The notes: generated by a model from the letters alone, not told the origin. A stretch of 64,000 nucleotides of DNA from Escherichia coli (GCF_001677475.2 NZ_CP015229.1), one strand, 5' to 3'; counted from the stretch's first letter, positions 12,802 to 60,580 are shown. Translations and numbers: made by a program.

Positions 12802-13172
12802 AGATCTCCTGCAAGGTTTTCCCTGAGCAAATTTGCCAGACAGAGTAATCCAGCAAATCGTCCGGGGAAACCTTACCTGTCGCAAACTGCGACTGATTGG
12901 TTAATTGTCGAACATTTAATCGACTGAAACGCTTCAGCTAGGATAAGCGAAACGTGGAATAAAAGGAATGATTGTCCAGTCAAAGAAGACAATTATCTGA
13001 CTTACGTCACGTTTTCAGCCCCGCCCCTGTGGAATTTATTCCACTTTGCAGAATCACGAATAAGCGTAGCAAAATCTTTTCGTTGTGCCGTCACAAACCC
13101 TGACTTATATCAGAATATGACTGATGCAGCGTCGATATTATCCGCAATACGTCCGAGTTTCGGAGTACTCCA

Positions 13173-13604: not shown

Positions 13605-13626
13605 CTACTTTCAGAGAGGTTTTCTT

Positions 13627-14205
13627 ATGGCGCGTCGCCACTTTTCCAGTCAGGCGTTGGTGTTGATCGTTATATCTATCGCCATCAATATGATCGGCGG
13701 GCAACTGGCCAGCATGGTCAAATTACCTATATTTCTCGACTCCATCGGCACACTTATTAGCGCGGTACTGCTTGGTCCGGTGATCGGGATGCTGACCGGC
13801 TTACTGACCAATTTACTCTGGGGATTGCTAACCGACCCGATCGCCGCCGCATTTGCGCCCGTCGCGATGGTCATCGGCCTGGTCGCCGGTTGGCTGGCGC
13901 GAGCGGGTTGGTTCCGCACCCTGCCAAAAGTTGTTGTCAGCGGCGTGATTATTACGCTTGTGGTAACGGTCGTCGCTGTACCGCTGCGTACTGCGCTGTT
14001 CGGCGGTGTCACCGGTAGCGGAGCCGATTTGTTCGTTGCCTGGATGCACTCAATGGGGCAAAACCTGGTGGAGTCGGTGGCGATTACGGTGATAGGCGCG
14101 AACCTGGTCGATAAAGTTCTCACAGCGGTGATTGTCTGGCTTTTACTGCGTCAGCTGCCGATTCGCACCACGCGCCATTTTCCGGCAATGGCAGCCGTGC
14201 GCTAA
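13627..14205 (+). CDS. ECF-type transporter substrate-capture (S) component, substrate unknown
   Basis: ATG at 13627 with AGAGAGG RBS; ~192-aa small integral membrane protein with multiple hydrophobic helices, directly upstream of T and A components. Confidence 0.55.
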   Translation: MARRHFSSQALVLIVISIAINMIGGQLASMVKLPIFLDSIGTLISAVLLGPVIGMLTGLLTNLLWGLLTDPIAAAFAPVAMVIGLVAGWLARAGWFRTLPKVVVSGVIITLVVTVVAVPLRTALFGGVTGSGADLFVAWMHSMGQNLVESVAITVIGANLVDKVLTAVIVWLLLRQLPIRTTRHFPAMAAVR

Positions 14206-14913
14206 ATGCATCCGTTTACCTCATTAACGCTGTGGGCGCTGGCAGCCTGCACCACGCTAATCCTGCCCGCGCAGACCATTTTGCCGGTCTATAGCGCGGC
14301 GACCTTTCTCTGCCTTATTGCGTTAAAGTCCACGCGGCGGCGAGCAAAATATGTCGTCTGGCTGATGTTCTCGCTGGGGGCTGGACTGTGGCTGGTACAC
14401 GGTGGCTGGCTGACAGAATGGCTAAGCGGCACGCCACGCTCGCCAGAACGGTGGGCGCATGCTATTACGCTCTGGTTGCGGATTCTGGCGATTGTTTCAA
14501 CCTCGCAGTTGTGGATGCAATTCGTCCCCGTGCAACGTTTTATCCGCGCTTTGTTTGCTTCTCGCCTGCCGCCAGGCGTCGCTTATCTGTTTGCCGGGCC
14601 GTTATTGGTCGTTGAGCAGTTAAAACGGCAATTAGCGATTATTCATGAAGCGCAGCGTGCCCGCGGCGTGCCTCTGGATGAGGGCTGGTATCAACGTTTA
14701 CATGCGATGCCCGCGTTAATTATTCCGCTAACACACAATGCGCTAAACGATCTTGCTGTCCGTGGTGCGGCGCTGGATATGCGGGCATTTCGGATCCACA
14801 GCCGACGAACAACGTTGTGGGCACCAGCCGATAGCCCCCTACAACGCGTAGCGCGTTACACCATGATCTTGCTGATGCTGGCAGAATTCGGAGCGTGGAT
14901 ATGGTTACGTTAG
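14206..14913 (+). CDS. ECF transporter transmembrane (T) component, EcfT/CbiQ-like
   Basis: 235-aa polytopic membrane ORF; start codon abuts the S-component stop (TAAATG). Confidence 0.55.
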   Translation: MHPFTSLTLWALAACTTLILPAQTILPVYSAATFLCLIALKSTRRRAKYVVWLMFSLGAGLWLVHGGWLTEWLSGTPRSPERWAHAITLWLRILAIVSTSQLWMQFVPVQRFIRALFASRLPPGVAYLFAGPLLVVEQLKRQLAIIHEAQRARGVPLDEGWYQRLHAMPALIIPLTHNALNDLAVRGAALDMRAFRIHSRRTTLWAPADSPLQRVARYTMILLMLAEFGAWIWLR

Positions 14914-15578
14914 AACAGTTTCGCTATTGCCCGACAAACTCAACGCATCCTCCGTTCTGTTATGACTTTCACTATGTCAAACCGGGGATAGTCGCCATCT
15001 TTGGTGACAACGGCAGTGGCAAAAGTACGCTGGCGCAACTGATGGCGGGCTGGTATCCAGACTTTCTACCAGGAGAGATAACCGGCACGGGGACACTTCT
15101 CGGTACGCCCATTGGGCATCTCCCGCTTAATGAACAATCCGCCACCATCCAGCTCGTCCAGCAATCGCCCTATTTGCAGCTCTCCGGCTGTACCTTTAGC
15201 GTGGAAGAAGAAGTTGCCTTTGGGCCAGAAAATCTGTGTCTTGCTGAAAAAGAGATTATGGCGAGGATTGATGCCGCCCTGACTCTGAGCGAGTGCCAGC
15301 CGTTGCGCCATCGACACCCGGCAACACTCTCCGGTGGAGAGACACAGCGCGTGGTCATCGCCTGCGCTATCGCGATGCAGCCAAAACTATTAATTCTTGA
15401 TGAAGCCTTTAGCCGCCTGACGCCGCAGGCCAGCGAAATGCTGTTGCAGCGCTTACAACACTGGGCGTTTGAACGTGGTTCGCTGATTATTCTTTTTGAA
15501 CGTCATCGCACACCTTTCCTGAACTACTGCCAGCAAGCGTGGCAACTGCAAAACGGAGCGCTCCAGCCACTATGTTAA
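14895..15578 (+). CDS. ABC/ECF transporter ATPase (A component)
   Basis: Walker A GDNGSGKST, ABC signature LSGGETQR, Walker B LLILDEAF. Confidence 0.75.
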   Translation: MDMVTLEQFRYCPTNSTHPPFCYDFHYVKPGIVAIFGDNGSGKSTLAQLMAGWYPDFLPGEITGTGTLLGTPIGHLPLNEQSATIQLVQQSPYLQLSGCTFSVEEEVAFGPENLCLAEKEIMARIDAALTLSECQPLRHRHPATLSGGETQRVVIACAIAMQPKLLILDEAFSRLTPQASEMLLQRLQHWAFERGSLIILFERHRTPFLNYCQQAWQLQNGALQPLC

Positions 15579-16249
15579 CGTTAAATCAGGTAACTTATCG
15601 CTGGCCTGGCGCGGCAACGGATTGTCTTTGCGACATTTCTCTGCAACTCAAACAAGGCGAATGGCTGGCGCTGACCGGCGACAATGGCGCAGGGAAATCG
15701 ACGCTGTTACGAGTAATGGCAGGTCTTCTTACGCCCACAGCCGGTACAGTTATGCTGCAACAACAGACGATGAAAAACCTGAAAAACCGCCAGCGCGCGG
15801 CAAAGATTGGCGTACTGTTTCAGGAAGCGGAAAACCAGCTTTTTCACAGCACCGTCGCTGACGAGATCGCATTTGGTTTGAAACTGCAAAAATGCCCGGC
15901 GGATGAAATCACTCAACGTACCCATGCTGCCCTGCAATGCTGTCAGTTAGCAGACACTGCCAGCGCGCACCCGTTGGATCTGCATAGTGCGCAGCGACGG
16001 ATGGTCGCCGTCGCCTGCCTGGAAGCACTCTCTCCGCCACTATTGCTGCTGGACGAGCCGAGTCGGGATTTTGACGAAAATTGGTTGAGCGTGTTTGAAA
16101 GCTGGCTGGAGAAGTGCCGCCAGCGAGGCTCGAGCGTCGTAGCAATCAGTCATGACGCCGCATTTACCCGGCGTCATTTCTCTCGTGTGGTGCGACTGGA
16201 AGATGGTGTAATCAGGAACGTTAATCCACCAGACGATATTCACCCGTAG
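15572..16249 (+). CDS. ABC/ECF transporter ATPase (A' component)
   Basis: Walker A GDNGAGKST, Walker B LLLLDEP; ATG at 15572 overlaps the upstream stop (ATGTTAA). Confidence 0.75.
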   Translation: MLTLNQVTYRWPGAATDCLCDISLQLKQGEWLALTGDNGAGKSTLLRVMAGLLTPTAGTVMLQQQTMKNLKNRQRAAKIGVLFQEAENQLFHSTVADEIAFGLKLQKCPADEITQRTHAALQCCQLADTASAHPLDLHSAQRRMVAVACLEALSPPLLLLDEPSRDFDENWLSVFESWLEKCRQRGSSVVAISHDAAFTRRHFSRVVRLEDGVIRNVNPPDDIHP

Positions 16250-16934
16250 CGGTCATCATTAAAGTCAAATTTGCAGGCAGACTCTCTTCCAGCACCCGGC
16301 GAACATTCGGCCCGTCGGTACGGTCATAAAAAGCTTCTGCGTCTGCCAGTGATAACCCTCCCGCCAGCTTGCGCCCCACCAGTCGTTCCCGCAACGCAGT
16401 AGCTGGCGCATTGATAAAGATCGAGAAATCACAAAATTGCGCAAGCTGGCACCACTTCTCGTCGTCCAGCAACAACCAGTTTCCTTCGACGATGACGAGT
16501 GGTGCGGTAACGTGCAACGCATCTTCAACAGGATCATGCTTTTGTCGATCATACTGCGGCCACGCACAATCCCCTTCCACTACCTGGCGCAGGTTTTCCG
16601 CCAGTTTCGCTACATCGAATGTCTCTGGTGCGCCTTTGAAGGGGCGCAATTGATGCGCATCCAGCCAGCTATTGTAATGGTGAAAACCATCCATCGGGAG
16701 TGTCTGAATAGCGGGTAGTTCCGGGTCTTGTTGCGCGAGATATTCCCAGAAGGTGGTTAGGGTAGATTTACCCGTCCCCGGCGGAGCGCAAAGAAAAACC
16801 ACCGTACGCCGCTGCGGATTTACCGTCTGTAAGGCCGCCAGCATACGCAGTAGCGTTTTATGAACATTCTCAATTTCATCATCAGAGTACTGCGCCTGTA
16901 CCTTTAGTCCATTCACCGTCAGTTCGATTTTCAC
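16221..16934 (-). CDS. yggC: P-loop kinase-like protein YggC
   Basis: 237-aa ORF with P-loop FLCAPPGTGKSTL. Confidence 0.8.
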   Translation of the reverse strand: MKIELTVNGLKVQAQYSDDEIENVHKTLLRMLAALQTVNPQRRTVVFLCAPPGTGKSTLTTFWEYLAQQDPELPAIQTLPMDGFHHYNSWLDAHQLRPFKGAPETFDVAKLAENLRQVVEGDCAWPQYDRQKHDPVEDALHVTAPLVIVEGNWLLLDDEKWCQLAQFCDFSIFINAPATALRERLVGRKLAGGLSLADAEAFYDRTDGPNVRRVLEESLPANLTLMMTATGEYRLVD

Positions 16935-17440
16935 GGCGTTAATTCCTTTAAGGTTGTCGTTACTGCCAGCGTCAGCGCCGTTTTGACCATCCCGCTAAAA
17001 CGCGCCTCTGACCAGACGGCGAAATCGGCGAACTTCATCGCTTTCAACGCGTCATAGAGCGTCGCATTGCGGATTATGCTATTGACGTTGCTGATAAAAT
17101 CCCAGGTCATGTCATCGGCAAATCCGGGCATTTCATCCTGTTCGTTCAGGTAATGCCAGAACTGGGAAAAATGCGTGATATCGGCGTACAGCCATTTATC
17201 CATTTTCCCCAGCGCATAAATCAAACGCAGTGCAACATCAATATCGTCAAGCGGGCCGCTTTGGGCGAGTAACGGCTTCACTGCATATTCGACGATCTCT
17301 TCATCATTATCGACAAACAGCGACGGCAGAAACTGGCGTATCCCCTGGAGCAAAATAGAATGCGCAGTTTTCATAAATGAAAATAAATTGTCCTGTGCCT
17401 CCAGTTGCTCAAGCACATCATCTTCTGTCAGCGTCGCCAT
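16931..17440 (-). CDS. yggD: MtlR-like protein YggD
   Basis: 169-aa ORF, overlaps yggC start by 4 bp. Confidence 0.75.
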   Translation of the reverse strand: MATLTEDDVLEQLEAQDNLFSFMKTAHSILLQGIRQFLPSLFVDNDEEIVEYAVKPLLAQSGPLDDIDVALRLIYALGKMDKWLYADITHFSQFWHYLNEQDEMPGFADDMTWDFISNVNSIIRNATLYDALKAMKFADFAVWSEARFSGMVKTALTLAVTTTLKELTP

Positions 17441-48982: not shown

Positions 48983-49012
48983 GCGTCAATACGGTGCTCC
49001 GTTGACGCTTAC

Positions 49013-49624
49013 GGCCAGCGATACATACTGAGAACCTTTATCACTGTGATGGATTGTGCCGGACGGCCGACGGGCCCACAACGCCTGCTCCAGTGCATCC
49101 AGCACGAATGTTGTTTCCATGGATGATGAGACCTGCCATCCCACGATGTATCCGGCGAACACATCAATGATGAACGCCACATAAACGAAGCCCTGCCATG
49201 TGCTTACCCAGGTAAAATCAGCCACCCACAACTGGTCTGGACGTTCTGCCACGAACTGACGGTTTACGCGGTCGCATGCGGCAACGGCTTTCCGGCTGAC
49301 GGTAGTGCGGACCTTTTTACCCCGGAGAACACCGGCAAGTCCCATAACTGCCATGAGACGTGCCACAGTGCATCTGGCCACTCTGATACCTTCCCGTAAC
49401 AACTGACGCCAGACTTTACGCACACCGTATACCTGGTGATTTTCATCGTATACGCGCTGTATCTCTTTCTTCAGCCAGTCATCGTGCTGCGCACGGGCAC
49501 TGCGTTTATCCGGATGATGTCGCTGTTGCTGACAATGGTAATACGTTGACGGGGCAATATGCAGTTCGCTGCATACCGGTCCGACCCCGTACTGCTCACG
49601 CAGCTTATCCAGCAGTGGCATCAT
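49013..49624 (-). pseudogene. IS3-family transposase OrfB, 3'-truncated
   Basis: About 200 of ~296 expected codons; the frame terminates inside the abutting IS66 sequence. Confidence 0.7.
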
Positions 49625-49947
49625 TTTTTCCAGAGGCGGTCGAACTCCGCCTTCGCAAAATAAGCGGAAGCCTGGCGAAGGATATCGTTACTGCGGCGCA
49701 GTTCACGATTTTCACGTTCCAGCTCTTTCAGACGCTGACGTTCAGCGCTGGTGAGCCCACCATCACCGCCCCCGGTATCCCGCTCATGCTGGCGAACCCA
49801 GACACGCAGAGTCTCCGGCGTACAGCCAATCTTTGGGGCAATGGAACAAATTGCCGCCCACTGTGAGTCATATTCATCCTGACTTTCCAGAACCATACGA
49901 ATCGCCCGCTGACGGACTTCGGGGGAAAAACGAGTATTTTTAGTCAT
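49621..49947 (-). CDS. IS3-family transposase OrfA (IS629-like)
   Basis: 108-aa HTH/leucine-zipper OrfA starting [22 protein letters not shown]. Confidence 0.8.
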
Positions 49948-50040: not shown

Positions 50041-50550
50041 GTGCTTTCAGCAGACCAGATGATGCAGCTCAGCAGAACACTGTTAAATCATGCGTCAGAG
50101 TGGATAACCCTTTCCGGTCAGCAGATAACGCGACTGACAGAATTCCCCCCGGCATACAACCTGCAACGCAGTGTGCAATTGCTGCAGCAACTGATGGTAC
50201 TTTTCCCCGACAATCCTCGTGTTCAGGAAATGGTGGATAACTGGCAGAAGAGTGCAAGGAGTCGTGCGCTCCCGGAAGAGGCGATGACTGGCTGGAACGA
50301 AGGCATGACCCGCTTACAGCTGTTGGCTGAGCGCCTGAACCGTCCAGATGAACAGCGGGGAAAATACATGACGGTCAGTGAGCTGAAAACGGAGGTGTCT
50401 GGCATCATGCAGGCTTTTAACCGGCATATCCTGGCAGAAGAACAGTTGTGTCACTATGGTGAAGTCCGCAACCAGAATGGAAGCGAGCAGCAGCAAAAAC
50501 AAATGAAAGATGCATTTGTTAAGCTGATTCATTTTTACTGTTTTATATAA
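50041..50550 (+). CDS. Hypothetical protein, possibly the 3' remnant of a gene disrupted by the IS3-family element
   Basis: 169-aa ORF from a GTG; the same frame stays open upstream across the IS boundary at 50001. Confidence 0.3.
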   Translation: MLSADQMMQLSRTLLNHASEWITLSGQQITRLTEFPPAYNLQRSVQLLQQLMVLFPDNPRVQEMVDNWQKSARSRALPEEAMTGWNEGMTRLQLLAERLNRPDEQRGKYMTVSELKTEVSGIMQAFNRHILAEEQLCHYGEVRNQNGSEQQQKQMKDAFVKLIHFYCFI

Positions 50551-50603: not shown

Positions 50604-51311
50604 TTGTTTGTGGAGTGTTTAAGCGCTTTTGGATGTTCGTCTGTTGTTTCGAATAGTATGGTGAATATGAATGGTAAATATAATGTCAGGAGTGAATTGT
50701 TAGCTCGTTGTATCGGAACTGGTAGATTGAAAGGAGATGTGAGAAGTGATTTTATTGGGTTTAATGGTAGTAAACAGGTAGGTTATGTTTTATTAACTTT
50801 ATTCTTAACGAAAGTAACAAATTCTGATTTGCTCTCTCATTATCGTATATTTAATCGTTTTTTGCATTATGAGAGAAAAGTTATGGACATATATAATTCT
50901 TTGAGTGATATAGAAGTTGATTGTATTTGCCAGGAAGTGATGGCTATATATGAACATACTCAGCGATGCTGCAACGAAAAGAAAATCACAACTATCCAGT
51001 TAGGCAGGAAACTTAATGGCAGGTATGCAGATACGATTGCTGAGTTAAAAGAAACAGCAGAGATAAGAGGGGAGGATGTGATTTCTTTTGAGATGGATAT
51101 ATTGAATTCTTTTAATGATGCGGATGAATATCACGGACGTGTTAAACTGGAGTTGGATATACCTGCTTCAGATATATTATATTGCCATGATTTTATTGAT
51201 TCAAAACATGTAAACTCCTGGTTGGTTGAACCACATGAGTGGGTGGTTATAAATCGTTCTCTCAATGGGATTGTTACAGTGCCAGTATCATCAATAAAGA
51301 TTCTTTATTGA
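50604..51311 (+). CDS. Hypothetical protein (AT-rich gene)
   Basis: 235-aa ORF in a markedly AT-rich stretch; no recognisable motif. Confidence 0.35.
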   Translation: MFVECLSAFGCSSVVSNSMVNMNGKYNVRSELLARCIGTGRLKGDVRSDFIGFNGSKQVGYVLLTLFLTKVTNSDLLSHYRIFNRFLHYERKVMDIYNSLSDIEVDCICQEVMAIYEHTQRCCNEKKITTIQLGRKLNGRYADTIAELKETAEIRGEDVISFEMDILNSFNDADEYHGRVKLELDIPASDILYCHDFIDSKHVNSWLVEPHEWVVINRSLNGIVTVPVSSIKILY

Positions 51312-51451: not shown

Positions 51452-52684
51452 ATGAATGATAATTTTTTAACGGAGAAAGTCCTTACTGGAGAGAATGTTC
51501 TGCGTGCAGCAATTGCTCGTATTGAGTGGATTTTTGAAACATTTCCATCAGTTTGTCTCTCTTTTTCCGGTGGTAAAGATTCCACCGTGCTTTTCCATCT
51601 TGTGGCTGATGTGGCCCGCAGGAAAAGACGTCGTTTCTCTGTACTGTTCATTGACTGGGAGGCTCAGTACCAGTGCACCATTGAACATATTCAGAAGATG
51701 CGGGAAATGTACTATGATGTGACGGAAACCTTTTACTGGGTGGCGCTTCCCCTGACCACGGTAAACGGTGTCTCGCAGTTTCAACCGGAGTGGATATGCT
51801 GGGAGCCTCGTGTGACCTGGGTTCGCCAGCCACCGGAAGAGGCCATTACGGATATGGCGTATTTTCCCTTTTACCGGTATGCCATGGCGTTTGAAGAATT
51901 TGTTCCGGCATTTTCTTCCTGGTTTGCTGGCAACCGGTGTGGAGTGGCAGTGCTGACCGGTGTCCGGGCGGATGAATCCCTCAACCGCTTTATGGGACTG
52001 GTGTCCCAGCGCAAACTGAGATATGCCAATGATAAGCCTTGGACCACGGCATCGCCTGAAGGGTTTTACTACACTATGTATCCGCTGTATGACTGGAAAA
52101 CTCGTGATATCTGGATATATCACACCAGAACCCGTGCCATCTACAATCCCCTGTATGATCTGATGTACCGTGCCGGCGTACCGTTACGCAACATGCGTGT
52201 CTGTGAACCTTTTGGTCCTGAACAACGTAAGGGACTGTGGCTTTACCATGTTCTGGAACCGGAAACCTGGGCCAGGATGTGTGAGCGGGTGTCAGGGGCT
52301 GCCAGCGGGGCACTTTATGCCAATGAAAGCGGGGCTTATTTTGCCCTGCGTAAGCGCATATCAAAACCAGCCCATCATACCTGGCGCAGCTATGCGATGT
52401 TTCTGCTGGATGTGATGCCGGAAAGAACGGCAGAACATTACCGCAACAAGATAGCTGTCTATCTGCGCTGGTATCAGACGCGGGGCTTCCCGGATGACAT
52501 CCCGGATGAACAGGAGAATGACCTGGGGAGCCGGGATATTCCGTCCTGGCGACGTATCTGTAAGACTCTCATAAAGAATGATTTCTGGTGCCGTACCCTC
52601 TCCTTCAGTCCGAACAAACCCCGGCACTATGAACGTTATCTGCAGCGTATGAAAGAAAGGAGGAAGGAATGGGGGATTCTGTGA
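51452..52684 (+). CDS. PAPS-reductase-family PP-loop protein (IbrA-like)
   Basis: 410-aa ORF with PP-loop SFSGGKDS near the N-terminus; overlaps the following ParB-like gene. Confidence 0.7.
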   Translation: MNDNFLTEKVLTGENVLRAAIARIEWIFETFPSVCLSFSGGKDSTVLFHLVADVARRKRRRFSVLFIDWEAQYQCTIEHIQKMREMYYDVTETFYWVALPLTTVNGVSQFQPEWICWEPRVTWVRQPPEEAITDMAYFPFYRYAMAFEEFVPAFSSWFAGNRCGVAVLTGVRADESLNRFMGLVSQRKLRYANDKPWTTASPEGFYYTMYPLYDWKTRDIWIYHTRTRAIYNPLYDLMYRAGVPLRNMRVCEPFGPEQRKGLWLYHVLEPETWARMCERVSGAASGALYANESGAYFALRKRISKPAHHTWRSYAMFLLDVMPERTAEHYRNKIAVYLRWYQTRGFPDDIPDEQENDLGSRDIPSWRRICKTLIKNDFWCRTLSFSPNKPRHYERYLQRMKERRKEWGIL

Positions 52685-53307
52685 CACCGGAGATACTGAG
52701 CAACATGATTCGTCAGTACTTCAGCCAGGAACGACCAGAAGAAGAGGCCATACAGGCCCTGAATCATCTGCGCAGGGTGCTTCATGAGGTCAGTCCATTT
52801 GCACAGGAGCCTGTGGACTGTGTGCTGTGGGTGAAAGCAGATGAGGTGGTGGCCAACGATTATAACCCCAATGTCATGGCGCCGGGTGAGAAGAAACTGC
52901 TGAAACATTCACTGGAGCAGGATGGGTTCACGCAGCCTGTGGTTGTCTCGGAAGAGAAGGAGCATTATCTGGTCGTGGATGGTTTTCATCGTCAATTACT
53001 GGGCAGGGAAGCAGGTACGGGAAAACGCCTGAAGGGCTGGTTGCCAGTGACCTGTATTAATCCGGAAAGAAAGGGACAGGCCTCACGTATTGCTGCAACC
53101 ATTAGACATAACCGGGCCAGGGGGAAGCACCAGATAACTTCAATGTCTGATATTGTCAGGGACCTGTCGCGGCTGGGCTGGACGGATGAACGTATTGGTA
53201 CGGAGCTGGGTATGGACCAGGATGAAGTTCTCAGGTTGAAACAGATTAGCGGGCTGACGGAGCTGTTTCTGGAAGAGGATTTCAGTCCGGCATGGACGGT
53301 TCGCTGA
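52669..53307 (+). CDS. ParB/sulfiredoxin-domain protein (IbrB-like)
   Basis: 212-aa ORF containing VVVDGFHRQ (ParB N-terminal DGxHR-type motif); 16-bp overlap with the upstream gene. Confidence 0.65.
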   Translation: MGDSVTPEILSNMIRQYFSQERPEEEAIQALNHLRRVLHEVSPFAQEPVDCVLWVKADEVVANDYNPNVMAPGEKKLLKHSLEQDGFTQPVVVSEEKEHYLVVDGFHRQLLGREAGTGKRLKGWLPVTCINPERKGQASRIAATIRHNRARGKHQITSMSDIVRDLSRLGWTDERIGTELGMDQDEVLRLKQISGLTELFLEEDFSPAWTVR

Positions 53308-53385
53308 GACCGTCATATATGTATATTATTTCAGTGAGTTAATGTTTTGAGCAGGAAAAAGAGTACCCCGGAAGTCGTGGAAGAC

Positions 53386-53655
53386 ATGGTTGCACAGAAG
53401 CTGGAGGCTGCGGGTTGCTGGCGCAGAGCTTCCGCCCGCTGGCTTTTTGTTATGGGAAATGTTGAATGTACAGAAGCACAACGGGAGTGGTTGTTGTTGC
53501 GCAGGAATTATTGCCTGGCGCAGATATCGTCCCCGCCGCTACCTGAAAAGCTGGATATCAGCGAAGTGGCGAAAGCTGCAGATGCCACGCTGAGGCGAAT
53601 GGGGATTGCCAGTCCGTCCGGGGAGGTATTCAGAAAAGGTACACCGGTCTGTTGA
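53386..53655 (+). CDS. PerC-family-like small transcriptional activator (tentative)
   Basis: 89 aa from ATG at 53386; GCWRRASARW...REWLLLRRNYCLAQ resembles PerC/Pch-type regulators as recalled; the ORF track starts it at an upstream TTG (53347). Confidence 0.4.
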   Translation: MVAQKLEAAGCWRRASARWLFVMGNVECTEAQREWLLLRRNYCLAQISSPPLPEKLDISEVAKAADATLRRMGIASPSGEVFRKGTPVC

Positions 53656-53675
53656 TATTCAGGTAACAGGTATTA

Positions 53676-54320
53676 ATGATAAAGAAAGGAATGGCAAACA
53701 GTATATCAATGACATGGCAACTTTTATGCGATGATCATGGTTTTACCCGGGAGCACTACAATCAGCTGAAGAAATTCAGCCCGGAGGCATTACGTGAAAT
53801 TATTGCTGAAATAGCCTGCTGCCATCCGTCAACCAGTATATTGCTCAGGAATAAGTGGCTGACACCGCCGGAGGATATTCCGGAGCAGGTTACCCGTGAA
53901 TACGAACGAAGAATACAGAACTGTCCATCTTTCAGGAGCGAGAAAGAGGCGGAATCCTGGCTAAATGAACTGTTTTTTGCTGTGATTGCGCCGCTATACC
54001 GGGTTGTCCCCGGACAATCAGAACAGGTTGAATCCTTTGTTCTGCAGCTTATTGCCGAACAGGAGCGGGTTTGGGAGCTTATTCTAACCAATGATGGTTA
54101 TTCATGGCATTGCGCACTTTATGATATATTATTTCATCTGGTTTTACGAAATATGGAAGACCAGCCTGAACATCAGAGACAGCGAATAACAAAAATACTT
54201 AATGAGTCCGATACAAGGCGGGTTGCAGAAGAGATTAAATTCCGGATTCAATATCTTCAGGATGAAGAACAAAAGAGAGTTTTAAGTGAGTTGGTAAATG
54301 TCCTGATTTCAAAAAGATAA
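53676..54320 (+). CDS. Hypothetical protein
   Basis: 214-aa ORF, no recognisable motif. Confidence 0.4.
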   Translation: MIKKGMANSISMTWQLLCDDHGFTREHYNQLKKFSPEALREIIAEIACCHPSTSILLRNKWLTPPEDIPEQVTREYERRIQNCPSFRSEKEAESWLNELFFAVIAPLYRVVPGQSEQVESFVLQLIAEQERVWELILTNDGYSWHCALYDILFHLVLRNMEDQPEHQRQRITKILNESDTRRVAEEIKFRIQYLQDEEQKRVLSELVNVLISKR

Positions 54321-54384
54321 AACATGTCGGAGTAATTTTTCTATATATTAAAAAAACAGGTTCGTATTACCATAAAGGAGATCG

Positions 54385-54708
54385 GTGAGTAACCGTTATT
54401 GGATGATCTCCTTCCATAAAAATACGCGCAATCTAACGGTTTGCTCTGTGCCAAAAAAAGACATTGCTCACAATATCGAGTTAATCATTCGGCCGTTGAA
54501 CATTCCCATTGAAAAATTTCTCAGTATAGAATATACCAATGTTGAGGGCATTCCTCTTACATCTCGAAGGATAACTATCATGGGTCTAAAACCAGGTCCA
54601 AAACCAATTGCTAAGTCAACAGGAAAACCGGATCAACGCCGACGCGATAATAAAGATACTCCTGGCAATACTCCGGGATTAAAGCCAAGTAAGTCCACAG
54701 GTAAGTAA
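54385..54708 (+). CDS. Hypothetical small protein, doubtful
   Basis: 107-aa ORF with Pro/Lys/Gly-rich C-terminus; convergent with the helicase gene. Confidence 0.25.
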   Translation: MSNRYWMISFHKNTRNLTVCSVPKKDIAHNIELIIRPLNIPIEKFLSIEYTNVEGIPLTSRRITIMGLKPGPKPIAKSTGKPDQRRRDNKDTPGNTPGLKPSKSTGK

Positions 54709-54715
54709 AAAATAA

Positions 54716-54740
54716 GGGTATAAATACTTATTTATACCCT
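54716..54740. terminator. Hairpin between convergent genes
   Basis: 11-bp perfect stem gggtataaata/tatttataccc with loop ctt, placed between the 54385-54708 ORF and the helicase gene stop. Confidence 0.5.
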
Positions 54741-54755
54741 GACTACATATCCAGT

Positions 54756-56954
54756 CTACTGAAGGTGTTTCTGCAGCCAGATGCACGTTCCTTTTATATC
54801 ATACGCCTGTGCCCCATACCCTTTAGCAAGCAAAGTCTCTGGTAAATACTCGTCATATTTATCCAGATACTTGTCGGGAACAACTGCAGCAAGCTCAAAC
54901 TCTGAAGGTAGCCCCGACAATAGCATTTTCTTAAGTGCACGCTGGACAGAGGCAACGCCTGAGTCCTCTACCTCTATCACACCTGCAAATGAACTGGCTT
55001 TAAAGCCACAACGTATAATCAGGGACGTAATTGTATTGACAATTTTATCCCCCATCCACGGGATCACGTAGCAGTTCTGACCACTGGCAATAAAACAGTC
55101 ATTTTGTAGATTGTAGCGTTGGAAGTTGTCACTTCCTTCCGCGAAGAGGCTTCTGGCTGCGGCATCAGCATAATCGACTCTCTTGTTGCCTACCGCGATA
55201 CGGTAATCATTTTCCCTGTAGATAGTGAGCATTTCCTGGCGAACAACATCATGAACAGACATCCCGGTACCACTGAATAGTGGCGGCTGACCGCCTTTAG
55301 TCGTCTCAACATAGATAACCTTTTTTTCAACCTCGATCTCTGTCACTTTCCAGCGCCGTCCGCCGAAGATGATGTGCTGCTCCGGCAAAAGTGGGGAGTC
55401 TACAGGCACTGTGCCAAGAGTTCGGTTTCCCGTTACAATGCGAAACTCCTCAGGTGTATTGAATACGGCATAAAACGTGTAGTGATTAGTCAGCTTCTCC
55501 CCCTCAGCCCCGACAACTATTTCACCGCTGGTTAGTTGAGTGAGCAGGCCACATGTCCCCATATGTTTAAGCAGACTTTTGAAGTCATTTATATCCACAT
55601 TCCGGAACGGACCTGTCTGGCAAAGTTGTGACCAGAGCTGATCGGCACGAACACCTCCCCATTGCGCAGTAATAGCCAGGATCTGGTGTAGTAGTGTGGA
55701 GTAATGTTTCTGCCGGATATCTGCAGGCTCGAACCAGCGCTTAGAGATCATCAACCTGATCATTGCCATCGCCTGAACCAACTGCAGCCGTAAATGATCC
55801 ACAATGCTGCTGGTTGCGGTAAGTTCAGGTTCAGTAATTAACATTCTCAGCACCGATGGGGAATCGCGCCGCCCTGAACGTCCCATGCGTTGACGCAGAC
55901 TGGAAACAGAATGCGGAGGTGTCACTTGTATGACAGACTGCACCTTACCAATATCAATACCCAGCTCCAGCGTCATTGTACAAACAGCGGTTGTGGGCAA
56001 ATTCCCTTTCTGCAGTCGGGCTTCAAGCGCCTCACGCAACTCCCTTGCAAGGGAACCATGATGAGGAAAGAATTCATTAGGAACGACATTTGCTTCACAC
56101 ATGTCGCTCAGTGTTGCCGCTATGCTTTCAGTACGCTTTCGACTGTTAGCAAAGACCAGGTGGGAATCGCCACGGCAGAGCCTGAAAATATCCGCGCAGA
56201 CGAGCTGTTCAGCAGAGCTCTGGAGCTCTTCTCCTTTTTCGGGCACCCGCTCAAGATAACCTTTAACCTGAACCTGTAGTGTGGCTTTGCTATTACTGTC
56301 TGTTACCGTTTCACAAGGTAATCTCTTATCCGGGCGCAATAGTTCTGGTACTTTTTCCAGCTCTCCCAGCGTGGCACTCAACGCGACACGGGGAACTGGA
56401 TTCAACTGGCGTCCCAGCACATGGTCAATTCTGTTAAGCAGAGAAAGCAGCTGTATACCACGCTCTGAGCCAATAAAAGCATGGAACTCATCAATAACAA
56501 TGTATGCCACAGAAGAAAACGCCTGTTTGAGCCAACCCAATGAGTTTATGAGCAAAGACTCAAGTGATTCAGGTGTGATAAGTAAGATGCCAGAAGGGGT
56601 TGTCCGTGCTTTCTTCTTTTTGCTTTGTGGTACATCCCCGTGCCAGGGCGTCACTTGCATTTCCAGGGCTTCACCAAGACTCTCAAGACGACGGTGTTGA
56701 TCGTTAATTAATGCCTTCAATGGACTGATATAGATAATGCCAAATCCACCAGTGAGATCTGCAATCGCTGAACAGGCAGGAAGAAAGAAAGCCTCTGTTT
56801 TACCCGCAGCTGTACCTGCACTAATTAGTACATCACGATCACGGGCTAAAATTGCCGGAATAGAGCTTTCCTGCAAGGGCCTTAAGGATGACCAGCCCTG
56901 CTTATAAACCCACTTACGGACACGGGGATCAAGACTATTGTAGGCACTACTCAT
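54756..56954 (-). CDS. DEAD/DEAH-box (Lhr-like) helicase; third gene of the candidate defence operon (SngC-like)
   Basis: 732-aa ORF with helicase motifs: Q (LRPLQ), I (AGTAAGKTEAF), II (DEFHAF), III (SAT), VI (QRMGRSGRR); overlaps the upstream ATPase gene by 4 bp. Confidence 0.8.
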   Translation of the reverse strand: MSSAYNSLDPRVRKWVYKQGWSSLRPLQESSIPAILARDRDVLISAGTAAGKTEAFFLPACSAIADLTGGFGIIYISPLKALINDQHRRLESLGEALEMQVTPWHGDVPQSKKKKARTTPSGILLITPESLESLLINSLGWLKQAFSSVAYIVIDEFHAFIGSERGIQLLSLLNRIDHVLGRQLNPVPRVALSATLGELEKVPELLRPDKRLPCETVTDSNSKATLQVQVKGYLERVPEKGEELQSSAEQLVCADIFRLCRGDSHLVFANSRKRTESIAATLSDMCEANVVPNEFFPHHGSLARELREALEARLQKGNLPTTAVCTMTLELGIDIGKVQSVIQVTPPHSVSSLRQRMGRSGRRDSPSVLRMLITEPELTATSSIVDHLRLQLVQAMAMIRLMISKRWFEPADIRQKHYSTLLHQILAITAQWGGVRADQLWSQLCQTGPFRNVDINDFKSLLKHMGTCGLLTQLTSGEIVVGAEGEKLTNHYTFYAVFNTPEEFRIVTGNRTLGTVPVDSPLLPEQHIIFGGRRWKVTEIEVEKKVIYVETTKGGQPPLFSGTGMSVHDVVRQEMLTIYRENDYRIAVGNKRVDYADAAARSLFAEGSDNFQRYNLQNDCFIASGQNCYVIPWMGDKIVNTITSLIIRCGFKASSFAGVIEVEDSGVASVQRALKKMLLSGLPSEFELAAVVPDKYLDKYDEYLPETLLAKGYGAQAYDIKGTCIWLQKHLQ

Positions 56955-58267
56955 AATCTGAAATTCGCCAGGCCATCATCGTCATCACTTTCCTCCACAA
57001 TGGCATCATCCATATCGCTGAGCTTGTCTTCTTCAATCGCCACCCCCTCAATGAGGGTTTGCCAGTTCATCGTTCTGTTTTGTTCCAGCACAGCCAGCAT
57101 ATCCAGAAAACCTTTTATGGTATTGCGGGGAGTTCGAAAGTAAGCATCTCCGATGGTTTTGCTGCAGTGATGCAGAAACCCGGTCAGAGCATCATCTGGC
57201 ACCAGATAATTTGCGGGATCTCCACCAGCATAAACATGACGAAGGTTTTTCAGTAAAATATACAGTTCCTCAGGAGTGAGGCTGGCAAGATGCAGCGTGG
57301 GGGACGAGTAGTCAATCACGCCAGCTTTCTGTGCGAATCGGTTTTCTGCCAGACGCGACTGGAGCGCTTCATAGCTGTAGAGCCCCTTACGTGGATCGAA
57401 AAGAAATTCTGGCGTCCCCCCGAGGATAAAACCAATATTTTCGGCGGAGCCTTGCAGGCAGTCATTCAGGATCCGCAAAATTTGTTCGTAGTTGGCCGTT
57501 CTCGCTTGCGTATTATTCAACTTGAAGAGGTTCACCATCTCGTCGAGGCTAACTAAAAGTCCGGCATAGCCTGCCTGACGGACAAAAAGGCTCATCAACT
57601 TCAAAGAATCATAGAACGAGGCGTCTGAGATAATCGTTCGGACGTCAAGATCATTACGGGCATCAGTTTTTGTGGTGTACTCGCCCCGCAACCAGCGAAT
57701 AGCATTGGATTTTAAGGTTTCGTTATCCTGCTCATGCCCGCGCCAGAATGCGTCAATGACCTTCGCAAAGTCATATCCTCCCACCATATCTGACAAAGCA
57801 GCAAGGCGTTTATGAATAACGGATGAGACCAGGGAGCCGTTCGCATCAGCTTCCTTCCTTGCCTCAGTAACAAACCTTTCCACAACGCTAAGTAATGCAT
57901 TGCCATCTGGTTTGTTTCTGGTGGACATATTTTTCATAAGCTCTGAGTAGAGATTACGAGCCTGACCTCCCGATGAGTGGATACGTCTGTCGGGAGAAAG
58001 GTCTGCACTGACCGTGACCAGCTTCTTCTCTAACGCAATAGACCGTACAACACTTAAAAAGAATGTTTTCCCGGAACCGTACTCACCAATGATAAGTCTG
58101 AAGCTTGCCCCGCCATCAGCAATCCGTTCAATATCCTGATGGAGGGCGGTTATCTCATTCACGCGGCCAACCTGGATATGCTGAATACCTATTCTTGGCG
58201 TTACTCCCGACTTAAGTGACTGAATGATAGCGTCGCGCTCTTTCACTCTTATACGTGTTACAGACAT
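56951..58267 (-). CDS. P-loop ATPase; second gene of the candidate defence operon (SngB-like)
   Basis: 438-aa ORF with Walker A GEYGSGKT and Walker B-like LLVSLDE; 3 bp from the upstream gene stop. Confidence 0.75.
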   Translation of the reverse strand: MSVTRIRVKERDAIIQSLKSGVTPRIGIQHIQVGRVNEITALHQDIERIADGGASFRLIIGEYGSGKTFFLSVVRSIALEKKLVTVSADLSPDRRIHSSGGQARNLYSELMKNMSTRNKPDGNALLSVVERFVTEARKEADANGSLVSSVIHKRLAALSDMVGGYDFAKVIDAFWRGHEQDNETLKSNAIRWLRGEYTTKTDARNDLDVRTIISDASFYDSLKLMSLFVRQAGYAGLLVSLDEMVNLFKLNNTQARTANYEQILRILNDCLQGSAENIGFILGGTPEFLFDPRKGLYSYEALQSRLAENRFAQKAGVIDYSSPTLHLASLTPEELYILLKNLRHVYAGGDPANYLVPDDALTGFLHHCSKTIGDAYFRTPRNTIKGFLDMLAVLEQNRTMNWQTLIEGVAIEEDKLSDMDDAIVEESDDDDGLANFRL

Positions 58268-58270
58268 TCA

Positions 58271-60580
58271 CTAACCCTCTAATTCTTTGGCTATTTCCAG
58301 GTCAATCCAAATGTGATCATCAGCATCTTCCAGCACTGGTGCATCAACCACCGCATAGGACCAATCGTTAATCACCTCAAGCGCACCGCCGAGCATCAGG
58401 TTCCAGTTACTACACAACTCTGTCGCCTCTTTTCTGGACCATTGTTCTTTCTCCAGCAACCTGCGATAAAGTTGGCTATGAGCGGAGTCAAGTCCCCCTT
58501 CCCCGGTTAATGAGGCTGGAGCGCTTTCTGGTTGTTCTGGTTCTTCTTCAGTGAAAATTGAGTTCAGTAATTTACGAACATCATCAGTGGCAGATTCGTG
58601 GCGGGCAAGTACGTTGGCATCCAGCGTAAACCCTGCCGTCGACTGATTAGCTGGTACAGATGAAACGAGAGCAGTTTCAGTTGCGGAATGCTGATGGATA
58701 TTGCTTGATACGGATGAGGGATCCAGTCCCAGGCTTGTATAAATCTTCTCAAGCTGTTTGATTTCGGCAGGCGTAATTCTGCCGTCAGAGCAAGCGACAC
58801 TAACGATAACCTTACCCACAGCTGATTTTTCCGCTGCACCGAGTAATTCAATCCGGCTTTTCATTCCCGTCATATTCGCCGGAGTATGAAGCTGCCACGT
58901 TAAATATGCGTGCAGAGAGCGCTTTTCATCATCGCTGAAGCTGGCATTGTTGTTGATGGCATTCTCAAGCACTTTCTGTTCGGCTTGATCGAGAGAATTG
59001 TCAATCAAGGCGACTACCGAACCTAATCGGAGCGTCAATACAGCTGTGATAAATTCAGGAGAAGGTGAGAAACGTCCTCTTTCACCAGCAGGGAATAAAA
59101 CAAGTACACCATCGACATCTGCCTTTACGTGGTGGTGATAGGGGTCAGGAGCCAGACAGTATCCCATTTTCTGTGCAAAGGCTTGCATTAAGTCGGCCTC
59201 TTTTTTATTGATCTTCGCCGGACAGGTGGCATTCATATGTGACCAGTAGTCAGCAACTGAAACTATCCCACCCTTACTGCGGATTGCGTCATCAGCCCAG
59301 TGTTTGAATGTACTTAATATTTTTTCTGCGCTTTCGTTAACGATTTCTGAAGGCAGCAACAAAATTGCAGCGGTATCATTTGCTGAAGTACCTTTTCTAC
59401 CAAGGTAACGACTGTAAGCATCCAGTTCACCTGTGCATATATCGGCAATGGCCATAAGCTTCTGAACAGGGCCTTTCAATGCACCTGGATCAGGCAAGTC
59501 GGGAACAGGAAGCCGAATACCTCGCAAACTGGGACTTGCAGGCGTGTAATCTAAACGCAGACGCGCTTTATTCGGCTTCACTACCATCCCTTCACCGTAT
59601 TTAAGGGTGTAACGCCGTTTAAATAGTGCAGCAAATTCTTTCGCACAGCGGCGGGCGGGGGTTCGTAATGAGTATTCAGCATGGTTTGTCACCCACGTCA
59701 GAGCCAGATCCGCTGGAACCGGGGCTCCTGTATCAACAGTCTTTGCCAGGATTAACCTGAACTGCATGCTATTGCTGAACTCCGAATCATCGTTGAGAGC
59801 TGCTGCAAGATTTTCGTTCGGACGAAGAATGGACATCGCTTCAAGTAACTGGGATGAGTAATTCCGGAAAGATCGGTTTTCATTGAAAACCGATCTGAGA
59901 CGGCAGATCTCTTTGAAAAGAGAATAGAACTCATCGTCGGATATATTGTTGTCCCTGCTGTCAACAAGCGCCCTTCTTTCCAGACCATACAGATAAATGA
60001 AAACGTAACCAATTGGGCAGGAAGTGTCGCATCTGTCGCTGGCAAGCCAACTCAGGTACGCACCACGAGCTTCAGGTGAAAGTGAGGAAAAACTGGGCCA
60101 ATACCCTAATGAACTATCTTCGTAAATGTAAGGTGTGGGGGATATTTTAAGCGTGTCGTCAACTAGCGATGCCTCGTTATTGCCATCATAATAACCGCCT
60201 GAGTTATGCCCGGCAGGTTTCATACGCTGCCCAAGATAGAAGTGACCGCCGGTAACCTCTATCCCACTGACTGTGATCATCTCTCCCGGAAAAATCCAAC
60301 GAGCCAAAGCACCGGTAGTTTTTGAGAAATTCTGGCGTTGAGTGGCTGTTATGCTGTATTCGACATTCCGCCCGCCACTTAGTGTAAACGTAGCCAGATT
60401 GTCATCTTCGCTGTCCTCGTTTTGCATTACAGACTGATTTTTTTTGTTGTTAGCAAGCCATTCTTTAGGTGGTGCTTTCACAGGAGCGGAAGTATAAGAG
60501 CCCGCGGACTTAGTTTTCTTCTTTTTGAAAAAAAGAATATAAATCAAATAAATAGCTACTATAAATATCCATAACTCCAT
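58271..60580 (-). CDS. Membrane-anchored protein with TerB-like motif; first gene of the candidate defence operon (SngA-like)
   Basis: 769-aa ORF; N-terminal hydrophobic helix (ELWIFIVAIYLIYILFF) then KKKK; internal segment VIVSVACSDGRITPAEIKQLEKI resembles the TerB-type xxADGxxxxxExxxL helix. Confidence 0.6.
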   Translation of the reverse strand: MELWIFIVAIYLIYILFFKKKKTKSAGSYTSAPVKAPPKEWLANNKKNQSVMQNEDSEDDNLATFTLSGGRNVEYSITATQRQNFSKTTGALARWIFPGEMITVSGIEVTGGHFYLGQRMKPAGHNSGGYYDGNNEASLVDDTLKISPTPYIYEDSSLGYWPSFSSLSPEARGAYLSWLASDRCDTSCPIGYVFIYLYGLERRALVDSRDNNISDDEFYSLFKEICRLRSVFNENRSFRNYSSQLLEAMSILRPNENLAAALNDDSEFSNSMQFRLILAKTVDTGAPVPADLALTWVTNHAEYSLRTPARRCAKEFAALFKRRYTLKYGEGMVVKPNKARLRLDYTPASPSLRGIRLPVPDLPDPGALKGPVQKLMAIADICTGELDAYSRYLGRKGTSANDTAAILLLPSEIVNESAEKILSTFKHWADDAIRSKGGIVSVADYWSHMNATCPAKINKKEADLMQAFAQKMGYCLAPDPYHHHVKADVDGVLVLFPAGERGRFSPSPEFITAVLTLRLGSVVALIDNSLDQAEQKVLENAINNNASFSDDEKRSLHAYLTWQLHTPANMTGMKSRIELLGAAEKSAVGKVIVSVACSDGRITPAEIKQLEKIYTSLGLDPSSVSSNIHQHSATETALVSSVPANQSTAGFTLDANVLARHESATDDVRKLLNSIFTEEEPEQPESAPASLTGEGGLDSAHSQLYRRLLEKEQWSRKEATELCSNWNLMLGGALEVINDWSYAVVDAPVLEDADDHIWIDLEIAKELEG

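What the first reader, a model, noticed from the sequence alone, without database searches (positions are those of the whole stretch)
53347..54708. PerC-like small regulator and two unannotatable ORFs between the IbrAB-like pair and the defence operon
The 89-aa ORF (GCWRRASARW...REWLLLRRNYCLAQ) resembles PerC/Pch-type activators that control virulence loci in pathogenic E. coli. It is followed by a 214-aa and a 107-aa ORF with no recognisable motif. Together with the IbrAB-like pair this could be a small horizontally acquired regulatory module, or additional components of the neighbouring system.
Basis: partly seen in the sequence, partly recalled or inferred. Interest (0 to 1): 0.4.

Follow-up and report, generated by a model that had tools for sequence, protein, structure and literature searches.

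The report
PchD regulator pair plus hidden micro-gene
The interval holds a known E. coli PerC-type regulator gene (a PchD allele) with an uncharacterised helical-repeat partner gene, and a mis-called third ORF that hides a 42-codon gene for a very basic peptide, strongly conserved across bacterial phyla and linked in enterobacteria to the neighbouring Shango anti-phage operon.

Summary
The PerC call is correct. ORF 53386-53655 matches Pfam PerC over its full length (E 5e-36) and is 97% identical to PchD of E. coli O157:H7 Sakai. The 214-aa ORF (53676-54320) is a real, conserved gene: 88% identical to Sakai ECs_1389, all-alpha solenoid-like, and a remote homologue of the N-terminal third of DUF6880 proteins. 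ibrA-ibrB-pchD-ECs_1389 is a known four-gene island module. The PerC+214 pair sits in about 19% of complete E. coli genomes, with or without Shango, so it is not part of Shango. Published RNA-seq shows ibrB, perC and the next hypothetical gene co-induced.

The 107-aa ORF is not a real unit. It straddles a synteny breakpoint near 54447. Only its last 42 codons (54580-54708) are conserved, and they have their own promoter-like site, Shine-Dalgarno sequence, ATG and terminator hairpin. That micro-gene is under strong purifying selection (dN/dS about 0.03-0.07). Its peptide is 76-100% identical in the best-scoring of about 1,500 protein clusters, across several phyla, and matches no known family. 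In about 94% of E. coli genomes that carry the end of sngC it lies directly beside it, convergently. It also occurs without Shango. Its function is unknown.

The parts
51452..52684 (+). ibrA-like gene (PAPS-reductase domain plus DUF3440), first gene of the module
   Evidence: Pfam PAPS_reduct 4e-17 and DUF3440 1e-33. Annotated ibrA (ECs_1386) in the syntenic Sakai locus. pN/pS 0.10 against Sakai.
52669..53307 (+). ibrB-like gene (ParB_N-like), overlaps ibrA by 16 nt
   Evidence: Weak ParB_N match, E 0.002, below the Pfam cut-off. RefSeq names it 'IbrB-like domain-containing protein'; it is ybdM/ECs_1387 in Sakai.
53386..53655 (+). PerC-family gene, a PchD (group 2 Pch) allele, 89 aa; an alternative TTG start at 53347 gives 102 aa
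   Evidence: Pfam PerC E 5e-36. 97% amino-acid identity to Sakai PchD. pN/pS 0.11-0.14. Starts 78 nt after ibrB.
53676..54320 (+). ECs_1389-family gene, 214 aa, all-alpha solenoid-like, homologous to the N-terminal region of DUF6880 proteins; proposed partner of PchD
54360..54447 (.). Junction segment between the ibrAB-pchD-214 module and the Shango cassette; the spurious 107-aa ORF starts here, at the GTG at 54385
   Evidence: Homology to the O157 module ends at 54360. Homology to Shango loci that lack ibrAB (E. coli L012, L032; a second set of loci, L046-L055) starts at 54447-54461 in most of them; L046 starts at 54547.
54509..54537 (+). Promoter-like site of the micro-gene: TTGAAA, 17 nt, TATACC
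   Evidence: Conserved as TTGAAA-17-TATA(C/T)C in the Shango-linked copies of both E. coli and the L046-L055 set. An overlapping match was also found by the consensus scan. Inferred, not mapped.
54544..54571 (+). 5' leader with a small hairpin (GAGG-N5-CCTC, 54544-54556) and a Shine-Dalgarno sequence AAGGA (54567-54571)
   Evidence: The hairpin is retained with a two-sided change in Vibrio (GAGAG/CTCTC). Predicted energy is -7.0 kcal/mol. A Shine-Dalgarno-like sequence (AAGGA, GGAG or GAGG) lies 6-8 nt before the ATG in most lineages examined.
54580..54708 (+). 42-codon micro-gene encoding MGLKPGPKPIAKSTGKPDQRRRDNKDTPGNTPGLKPSKSTGK (4.4 kDa, pI 10.8)
   Evidence: Third-codon-position variation pattern. 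dN/dS 0.03-0.07; 26 synonymous and 3 non-synonymous differences against L036. 1,488 protein clusters across phyla. 861 E. coli genomes and 1,424 plasmids. No family or PDB match.
54715..54740 (.). 11-bp stem hairpin between the convergent micro-gene and sngC; the T-tract is on the sngC (minus) side
   Evidence: Terminator scan and fold energies of -15.5 and -17.2 kcal/mol.
54756..60580 (-). Shango operon: sngC 54756-56954, sngB 56951-58267, sngA 58271-60580
   Evidence: PADLOC SngC 5e-278, SngB 9e-187, SngA 2.5e-99.

Best explanation
The interval contains parts of two independent units that happen to abut. Unit 1 is the 3' half of a horizontally acquired, operon-like four-gene module, ibrA-ibrB-pchD-ECs_1389. 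Its third gene encodes a PerC-family small regulator of the PchD subgroup. Its fourth encodes a 214-aa helical-repeat protein. I infer that this protein is PchD's binding partner or co-regulator, made in step with it from the same transcript. The module is a regulatory cassette carried on E. coli genomic islands, not part of Shango. Unit 2 begins at about 54447. It is the outer edge of the Shango cassette and carries a free-standing 42-codon gene, convergent with sngC, with a promoter-like site, leader hairpin, Shine-Dalgarno sequence and shared terminator hairpin. Its product is a strongly conserved, very basic, proline/glycine/lysine-rich and probably disordered peptide. I infer that it acts by binding a conserved cellular or nucleic-acid target, and in enterobacteria possibly as an accessory to Shango. 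The annotated 107-aa ORF is an artefact: an upstream in-frame start in junction DNA that reads into the micro-gene. Shown: identities, boundaries, selection patterns, linkage statistics, and co-induction of ibrB-perC-hyp3 in the literature. Inferred: the single transcript, the PchD-partner interaction, and any function of the peptide.
For: PerC identity. The four-gene synteny in O157 Sakai SpLE1 and other islands. The block is mostly complete in 962 genomes and the PerC+214 pair is adjacent in 1,033 of 5,426. Gene spacing is a 16-nt overlap, then 78-nt and 20-nt gaps, with no terminator-like site on the + strand downstream of 51858. The consecutive loci ibrB, perC and hyp3 are co-upregulated in STEC RNA-seq (PMC7649339), and pchD is induced on lettuce (PMC6891304). 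A PerC gene (58% identical) and a 214-family gene (43% identical) are again adjacent in L003/L004, in reversed order, overlapping by 4 nt and without ibrAB. ibrAB also occurs alone. The solenoid-type fold is typical of protein-binding scaffolds. For the micro-gene: the breakpoint at 54447-54461; the coding signature and dN/dS; conserved promoter-like site, Shine-Dalgarno sequence and terminator; 10 of 10 distinct places with sngC on one side and a different neighbour on the other; the same arrangement on IncF plasmids; 753 E. coli genomes with the micro-gene/sngC junction against 802 with the sngC end; about 1,500 clusters across phyla.
Against: No direct transcript map exists for this strain. 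PchD has shown no clear phenotype in published tests, so 'regulator' rests on family membership. The PerC-214 pairing is absent around other distant 214-family members (L005, L007, L009, L017). The fused AlphaFold model cannot be read for an interface. The micro-gene occurs without Shango: next to umuDC-like genes, in a Vibrio cassette array, after a CBASS-like system, and on a 7-kb plasmid. Shango is published as a functional three-gene system (bioRxiv 10.1101/2022.11.11.516204), so the peptide need not be a Shango subunit. There is no expression evidence for the peptide.
Confidence: 0.7

Rival explanations
1. PerC, the 214-aa protein and the third ORF are all accessory or regulatory components of the adjacent Shango defence operon.
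For: They are immediate neighbours in this window and in hundreds of E. coli genomes with at least 99% identity. Defence systems often carry small regulators.
Against: O157 Sakai has ibrAB-pchD-214 with no Shango. E. coli CRE1540, the L046-L055 loci and IncF plasmids have Shango plus the micro-gene with no ibrAB, PerC or 214. The synteny breakpoint at about 54447 separates them. No PADLOC hit for PerC or the 214-aa protein.
Confidence: 0.05
2. The 107-aa ORF is a genuine protein in this island lineage, a long isoform with a lineage-specific N-terminal domain.
For: A strong Shine-Dalgarno-like AAGGAG lies 4 nt upstream of the GTG at 54385. The frame is open and annotated in RefSeq, and L013 has an ATG at that position.
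Against: The N-terminal 65 codons show 5 synonymous and 9 non-synonymous differences, against 4 and 0 for the last 42 codons. The N-terminal part is absent from other Shango-linked copies and unrelated in all other genera. The internal Shine-Dalgarno sequence and ATG are conserved in the lineages examined. Frameshifted variants exist (P0084 and P0094).
Confidence: 0.1
3. The conserved 129-nt element works as an RNA or a DNA site (for example a recombination site or small RNA), and the peptide reading frame is incidental.
For: It sits at cassette junctions and at an apparent insertion point: Septu-like genes lie between it and sngC in Klebsiella. It also occurs inside a Vibrio cassette array.
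Against: All 36 third codon positions vary, against 19 of 36 first and 19 of 36 second positions. Synonymous sites are saturated while the amino acids are kept (mean pS 0.67, pN 0.115). Conservation starts at the Shine-Dalgarno sequence and stops at the stop codon. No Rfam match.
Confidence: 0.05
4. ibrA-ibrB(-pchD-214) is itself a DNA-modification or defence-type system (PAPS-reductase plus ParB-like, resembling DndC/DndB or BrxP) sitting in a defence island, with PchD and the 214-aa protein as its regulators.
For: IbrA has weak hits to BrxP (3e-7) and DndC (1e-4). Its neighbours across island variants include a 3'-5' exonuclease, an ATP-dependent nuclease, Shango and type I restriction-modification genes.
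Against: The hits are far below family level. ibrAB also occurs alone next to non-defence genes. The K-12 paralogues ybdNM are under CitR control beside the citrate lyase genes (PMC9068703). The published role of IbrAB is activation of eib expression (Sandt et al. 2002, as cited in PMC7649339).
Confidence: 0.15
5. pchD and the 214-aa gene are functionally inert passengers that merely persist on the island.
For: PchD showed no LEE, curli or clear biofilm effect. The 214-aa gene is under relaxed constraint, pN/pS up to 0.39.
Against: Both are intact and adjacent in 1,033 genomes across divergent island variants. pN/pS is well below 1. They are induced on host-cell contact. The pair recurs at 43-58% identity in another lineage.
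Confidence: 0.15

Closest known systems
PchD (ECs_1388) of E. coli O157:H7 Sakai, group 2 of the Pch (PerC homologue) proteins
   Same: 97% amino-acid identity, 89 aa. Same neighbours: ibrA and ybdM/ibrB upstream, ECs_1389 downstream. Located on a horizontally acquired island.
   Different: A different island and flanks: here next to Shango, in Sakai within SpLE1 next to IS elements. Effectively an allele.
PerC of EPEC (EAF plasmid) and PchA/B/C of EHEC prophages
   Same: Same Pfam family, PF06069; small helical proteins encoded on mobile elements.
   Different: PerC and PchABC activate ler/LEE1. PchD did not in the published tests (PMC6265319). No 214-aa partner gene has been described for them, and none was looked for here.
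IbrAB genetic island of E. coli ECOR-9 (activators of eib immunoglobulin-binding protein genes)
   Same: The upstream pair has the same domains and is named ibrA/IbrB-like by RefSeq.
   Different: An eib link was not examined. In over a thousand E. coli genomes the megablast match covers only the ibrAB half, and the two such loci inspected (L014, L015) have no PerC or 214 gene.
DUF6880 (PF21810) proteins, about 460 aa, function unknown
   Same: The 214-aa family aligns with their N-terminal ~190 residues (hhalign 99%, E 3.8e-18), sharing the motif LL(R/K)NKWLTxPxDIL / LiNGyLsxPxDxLK.
   Different: It lacks the C-terminal ~270 residues that carry the Pfam-scoring region. It gives no direct Pfam hit. 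Contexts are unrelated.
Shango (SngA/SngB/SngC) anti-phage system
   Same: The micro-gene lies 47-66 bp beyond the sngC stop codon, convergent, in E. coli, the L046-L055 loci and Klebsiella/Salmonella plasmids.
   Different: Shango is defined and was shown functional as three genes. PADLOC has no model for a fourth. The micro-gene also exists without Shango.
Small basic stress- or ribosome-associated peptides such as E. coli Sra (from general knowledge, compositional analogy only)
   Same: About 40-45 aa, highly basic, low complexity, probably unstructured.
   Different: No sequence similarity was detected to any family or solved structure. No evidence for ribosome binding.

Membership tests
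PerC family (Pfam PF06069) | Full-length match to the family profile above the curated cut-off | tested here: met
   123.2 bits against a cut-off of 22.6, E 5.2e-36, profile positions 2-89 of 90.
PerC family (Pfam PF06069) | Transcriptional activation of ler/LEE1 or another defined target | not testable with these tools
   The literature reports no LEE effect for the PchD subgroup (PMC6265319).
Pch group 2 (PchD) | Near-identity to Sakai PchD and the synteny ibrA-ybdM-pchD-ECs_1389 | tested here: met
   97% amino-acid identity. The four-gene block aligns at 92.7% nucleotide identity.
DUF6880 (PF21810) | Match to the Pfam profile at its cut-off, with the full ~470-position architecture | tested here: not met
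   No Pfam hit at E <= 0.1 for the 214-aa protein. Only the N-terminal ~190 residues are homologous, by profile-profile comparison. It is therefore a stand-alone relative of the N-terminal region, not a family member.
Shango system | SngA (TerB), SngB (ATPase) and SngC (helicase) in one operon | tested here: met
   PADLOC E-values of 2.5e-99, 9e-187 and 5e-278 for the three minus-strand genes. This applies to the neighbouring operon, not to the finding's ORFs.
Shango system | Obligate co-occurrence of a candidate extra gene with sngABC | tested here: not met
   PerC and the 214-aa gene occur without Shango and vice versa.
Shango system | Co-occurrence of the 42-codon micro-gene with sngC | tested here: inconclusive
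   About 94% of E. coli genomes with the sngC end have it adjacent, as do 10 of 10 places examined for P0210. It also occurs without Shango. A functional requirement was not tested.
IbrAB pair | PAPS-reductase/DUF3440 protein followed by a ParB-like protein, with overlapping genes | tested here: met
   (the ParB_N match is weak, below the cut-off); RefSeq 'IbrB-like domain'; 16-nt overlap.
ANR (AraC negative regulator) family | Match to NCBIfam NF033650 at its cut-off | tested here: not met
   13.6 bits against a cut-off of 32, E 0.045; treated as noise.

The most novel reading that the evidence does not exclude
The 42-residue basic peptide (54580-54708) is an unrecognised functional gene of mobile elements. 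It is under very strong purifying selection from Enterobacterales to Bacteroidota, Chlorobiota and Campylobacterota, and in enterobacteria it serves as a fourth, so far overlooked, component or modulator of the Shango anti-phage cassette. Separately, PchD-type PerC proteins may work as a two-protein regulator with a dedicated helical-repeat partner, which could explain why PchD expressed alone has shown no phenotype.
Probability: 0.3. Interest if true: 0.65.

Novelty: new member of a known kind. Interest (0 to 1): 0.42.

Why it matters
Most of the finding is ordinary: a known PchD allele in its known island module. Two points are useful. First, PchD has no assigned function. A co-transcribed, co-diverging partner gene suggests that earlier tests expressing pchD alone may have missed a two-protein unit. 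Second, genome annotation either extends the 42-codon gene into a 107-aa artefact or omits it altogether, yet it is among the most conserved genes in this region. It is found in about 16% of complete E. coli genomes and 2% of PLSDB plasmids, and it is tightly linked to Shango, a defence system whose mechanism is unknown. Including or deleting it in Shango constructs is a cheap experiment that could change how that system is defined.

Tried and rejected
- **Family searches.** Pfam, NCBIfam, PADLOC and PHROGs gave nothing for the 214-aa protein, the 107-aa ORF or the 42-mer. A PDB sequence search with the 42-mer also found nothing.
- **Weak hits treated as noise.** The ANR-family hit of PerC (E 0.045) and the sub-threshold Arm-DNA-bind_4 and Crr6 hits of the 214-aa protein.
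- **Rfam.** Over 53200-54900 there was only an isrN match at E 0.85, treated as chance.
- **Species-representative genome scan for the 214-aa family.** Only two loci were found: one E. coli-like contig filed under a Collinsella MAG, and one Pantoea locus without PerC.
- **PerC search near distant 214-family genes.** A PerC HMM over all fetched loci found no PerC near the distant members in L005, L007, L009 and L017.
- **Literature.** Searches for the peptide motif and for DUF3440, DUF6880 or IbrB-like defence roles found nothing relevant. Sandt et al. 2002 is not held.
- **Neighbour clustering.** Across 56 micro-gene loci, no recurrent partner other than Shango was found.

Full report
**What is at the coordinates.**
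ORF listing confirms three plus-strand ORFs: 53347-53655 (102 aa from TTG, 89 aa from the ATG at 53386), 53676-54320 (214 aa) and 54385-54708 (107 aa from GTG). Upstream lie an ibrA-like gene (51452-52684; PAPS_reduct plus DUF3440) and an ibrB-like gene (52669-53307; weak ParB_N match). Downstream on the minus strand are three genes that PADLOC identifies as Shango: SngC 5e-278, SngB 9e-187, SngA 2.5e-99. The window is nearly identical (99.8%) to a chromosomal island of several E. coli strains. RefSeq annotates the three ORFs there as 'PerC family transcriptional regulator' and two hypothetical proteins.

**The PerC-like ORF.**
- The Pfam PerC match is full length and far above threshold: 123 bits against 22.6, E 5e-36.
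- The protein is 97% identical to PchD (ECs_1388) of O157:H7 Sakai.
- The whole block ibrA-ybdM(ibrB)-pchD-ECs_1389 is syntenic with Sakai SpLE1 at 92.7% nucleotide identity.
[quoted passage not shown] It states that PchD has little effect on LEE and that its function is elusive (PMC6265319).

So the family call is right, but the implied virulence-locus activation is not established for this paralogue.

**The 214-aa ORF.**
- It is a real gene: 88% identical to Sakai ECs_1389, with homologues down to 52% identity in Escherichia and pN/pS of 0.22-0.39.
- The family is very narrow. An exhaustive profile search of 1.84 billion representatives found 38 clusters. A scan of one genome per species found only two loci.
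- It has no direct Pfam, NCBIfam, PADLOC or PHROG hit.
- Its profile does hit the N-terminal ~150 residues of ~460-aa proteins that carry DUF6880. hhalign confirms homology over 183 columns (99%, E 3.8e-18).

**Is it tied to PerC, to IbrAB or to Shango?**
- In complete E. coli genomes the PerC+214 pair is adjacent in 1,033 of 5,426, and the four-gene block is mostly complete in 962.
- In over a thousand further genomes the match covers only the ibrAB half. The two such loci inspected carry ibrAB with no PerC or 214 gene.
- O157 has the block without Shango.
- Shango occurs without the block in E. coli CRE1540, in the L046-L055 loci and on IncF plasmids.
- A distant 214-family member (43% identical) in L003/L004 sits directly beside a PerC gene 58% identical to this one. 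The order is reversed, the genes overlap by 4 nt, and there is no ibrAB.
- Other distant 214-family members have no PerC nearby.

I conclude that PerC and the 214-aa gene form a separable two-gene unit, appended to ibrAB in Escherichia and unrelated to Shango.

**Operon evidence.**
Gene spacing is a 16-nt overlap, then 78-nt and 20-nt gaps. There is no terminator-like site on the plus strand downstream of 51858, and promoter-like matches are at chance level. A published STEC RNA-seq table lists three consecutive loci (ibrB, perC, hypothetical 'hyp3') as co-upregulated on contact with epithelial cells (PMC7649339). pchD is also induced on lettuce (PMC6891304).

**The 107-aa ORF is an artefact that hides a real micro-gene.**
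- Its homologues are short proteins from many genera. They share only the last 42 residues, starting at an internal Met, and their N-termini are unrelated.
- A DNA alignment across E. coli, Klebsiella, Vibrio, Pseudomonas and Xanthomonas shows conservation that begins at a Shine-Dalgarno sequence, continues with third-position wobble, ends at the stop codon, and is followed by a different hairpin in each lineage.
- Among 28 distinct DNA versions, all 36 third codon positions vary, against 19 of 36 first and 19 of 36 second positions.
- dN/dS is 0.03-0.07 where synonymous sites are not saturated. One pair has 26 synonymous and 3 non-synonymous differences.
- Within the 107-aa frame, the first 65 codons show 5 synonymous and 9 non-synonymous differences against a 93%-identical variant. 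The last 42 show 4 and 0.
- Homology to Shango loci that lack ibrAB starts inside the ORF at 54447-54461 in all but one of them, while homology to the O157 module ends at 54360.
- Shango-linked copies conserve a TTGAAA-17-TATA(C/T)C promoter-like site, a small leader hairpin and an AAGGA Shine-Dalgarno sequence.

The real gene is therefore 54580-54708. It encodes a 4.4-kDa peptide with pI 10.8, 11 Lys/Arg, 7 Pro and 6 Gly.

**Distribution and linkage of the micro-gene.**
- A profile of the peptide finds 1,488 protein clusters. The 120 best-scoring ones are 76-100% identical to the window peptide. Named sources include Escherichia, Pectobacterium, Pantoea, Vibrio, Pseudomonas, Acidovorax, Aliarcobacter, Aquimarina and Chlorobium; the earlier searches added Salmonella, Klebsiella and Xanthomonas.
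- It is in 861 of 5,426 complete E. coli genomes and on 1,424 of 72,556 plasmids, mostly Klebsiella. It is in only 1 of 50,697 phage records.
- It is usually unannotated on plasmids and in part of the E. coli genomes.
- In E. coli, 753 genomes carry the micro-gene/sngC junction, against 802 that carry the sngC 3' end.
- In 10 of 10 distinct places for the variant P0210 it lies 62-66 bp from sngC, convergent, with a different left neighbour each time. IncF plasmids show the same arrangement.
- One island variant (L013) keeps the micro-gene and a truncated sngC remnant next to an IS66 fragment and a type I restriction-modification system.
- It also occurs without Shango: convergent with umuDC-like genes, in a Vibrio cassette array, after a BrxR-regulated E2/ThiF/JAB system (probably CBASS) in Xanthomonas, beside a RES-Xre toxin-antitoxin pair in Pseudomonas, and on a 7-kb Proteus plasmid with SIR2 and ParE genes.
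- Clustering of neighbours over 56 loci found no recurrent partner other than Shango.
- Shango is described as a three-gene system in the literature I could read, and PADLOC has no model for a fourth gene.

**Mechanism, with its limits.**
For unit 1, the supported picture is an island-borne, co-expressed regulatory cassette. That PchD acts together with the solenoid protein is an inference from adjacency, co-divergence and fold, not a demonstrated interaction. For unit 2, protein-level function is strongly supported by the selection pattern. What the peptide does is not known. Its composition suggests binding to nucleic acid or to a conserved cellular machine, and its position suggests a link to Shango in enterobacteria. 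I put about 0.3 on it being a functional Shango accessory.

**Verdict.**
The PerC gene and its module are already known, so that part is ordinary. The added value is a corrected gene model for the third ORF and the recognition of a widespread, unannotated micro-protein family at the edge of the Shango cassette.

Noticed in passing
window 54580-54708: A 42-codon gene for a very basic P/G/K-rich peptide. It is 76-100% identical in the best-scoring of ~1,500 protein clusters from several phyla, is present on 2% of PLSDB plasmids and is almost absent from phages. It belongs to no known family.
   Followed up: yes
L018-L023 (Klebsiella tmRNA-adjacent island) 6001-12225; L031: In Klebsiella the micro-gene and sngC are separated by about 3.9 kb carrying a Septu-like pair (AAA_15/21 ATPase plus HNH), and the peptide frame is broken after codon 35. 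The micro-gene/sngC gap therefore looks like an insertion point for other defence cargo.
   Followed up: partly
L013 (E. coli E200086) 10334-17265: An island variant in which Shango is reduced to a ~150-nt sngC 3' remnant next to an IS66 fragment and replaced by a type I restriction-modification system. This shows defence cargo turnover beside a constant ibrAB-pchD-214 block.
   Followed up: partly
window 50604-51311: An AT-rich (33% GC) 235-aa ORF just upstream of ibrA, conserved in the island variants (L001 11368-12012, L013 6294-6938), with no family match. It could carry the module's promoter region or be a further module gene.
   Followed up: no
window 48986-49947 and 50041-50550: An IS3-family element (orfA 49621-49947, orfB-like 48986-49624, minus strand) followed by a stand-alone VasL-domain fragment of a type VI secretion gene (Pfam VasL 7e-30). 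These look like island debris.
   Followed up: no
L003/L004 1-6917: The distant PerC/214 pair follows a 1,953-aa DUF4011/AAA_11/AAA_12/DUF3320 helicase and a PRiA4_ORF3-domain gene, and precedes NA37 and RelA_SpoT genes. This is a different island context for the pair.
   Followed up: no
L016 (contig filed under a Collinsella MAG): A 1.8-kb contig 96-98% identical to this E. coli region is assigned to a Collinsella metagenome-assembled genome. This is most likely binning contamination.
   Followed up: no
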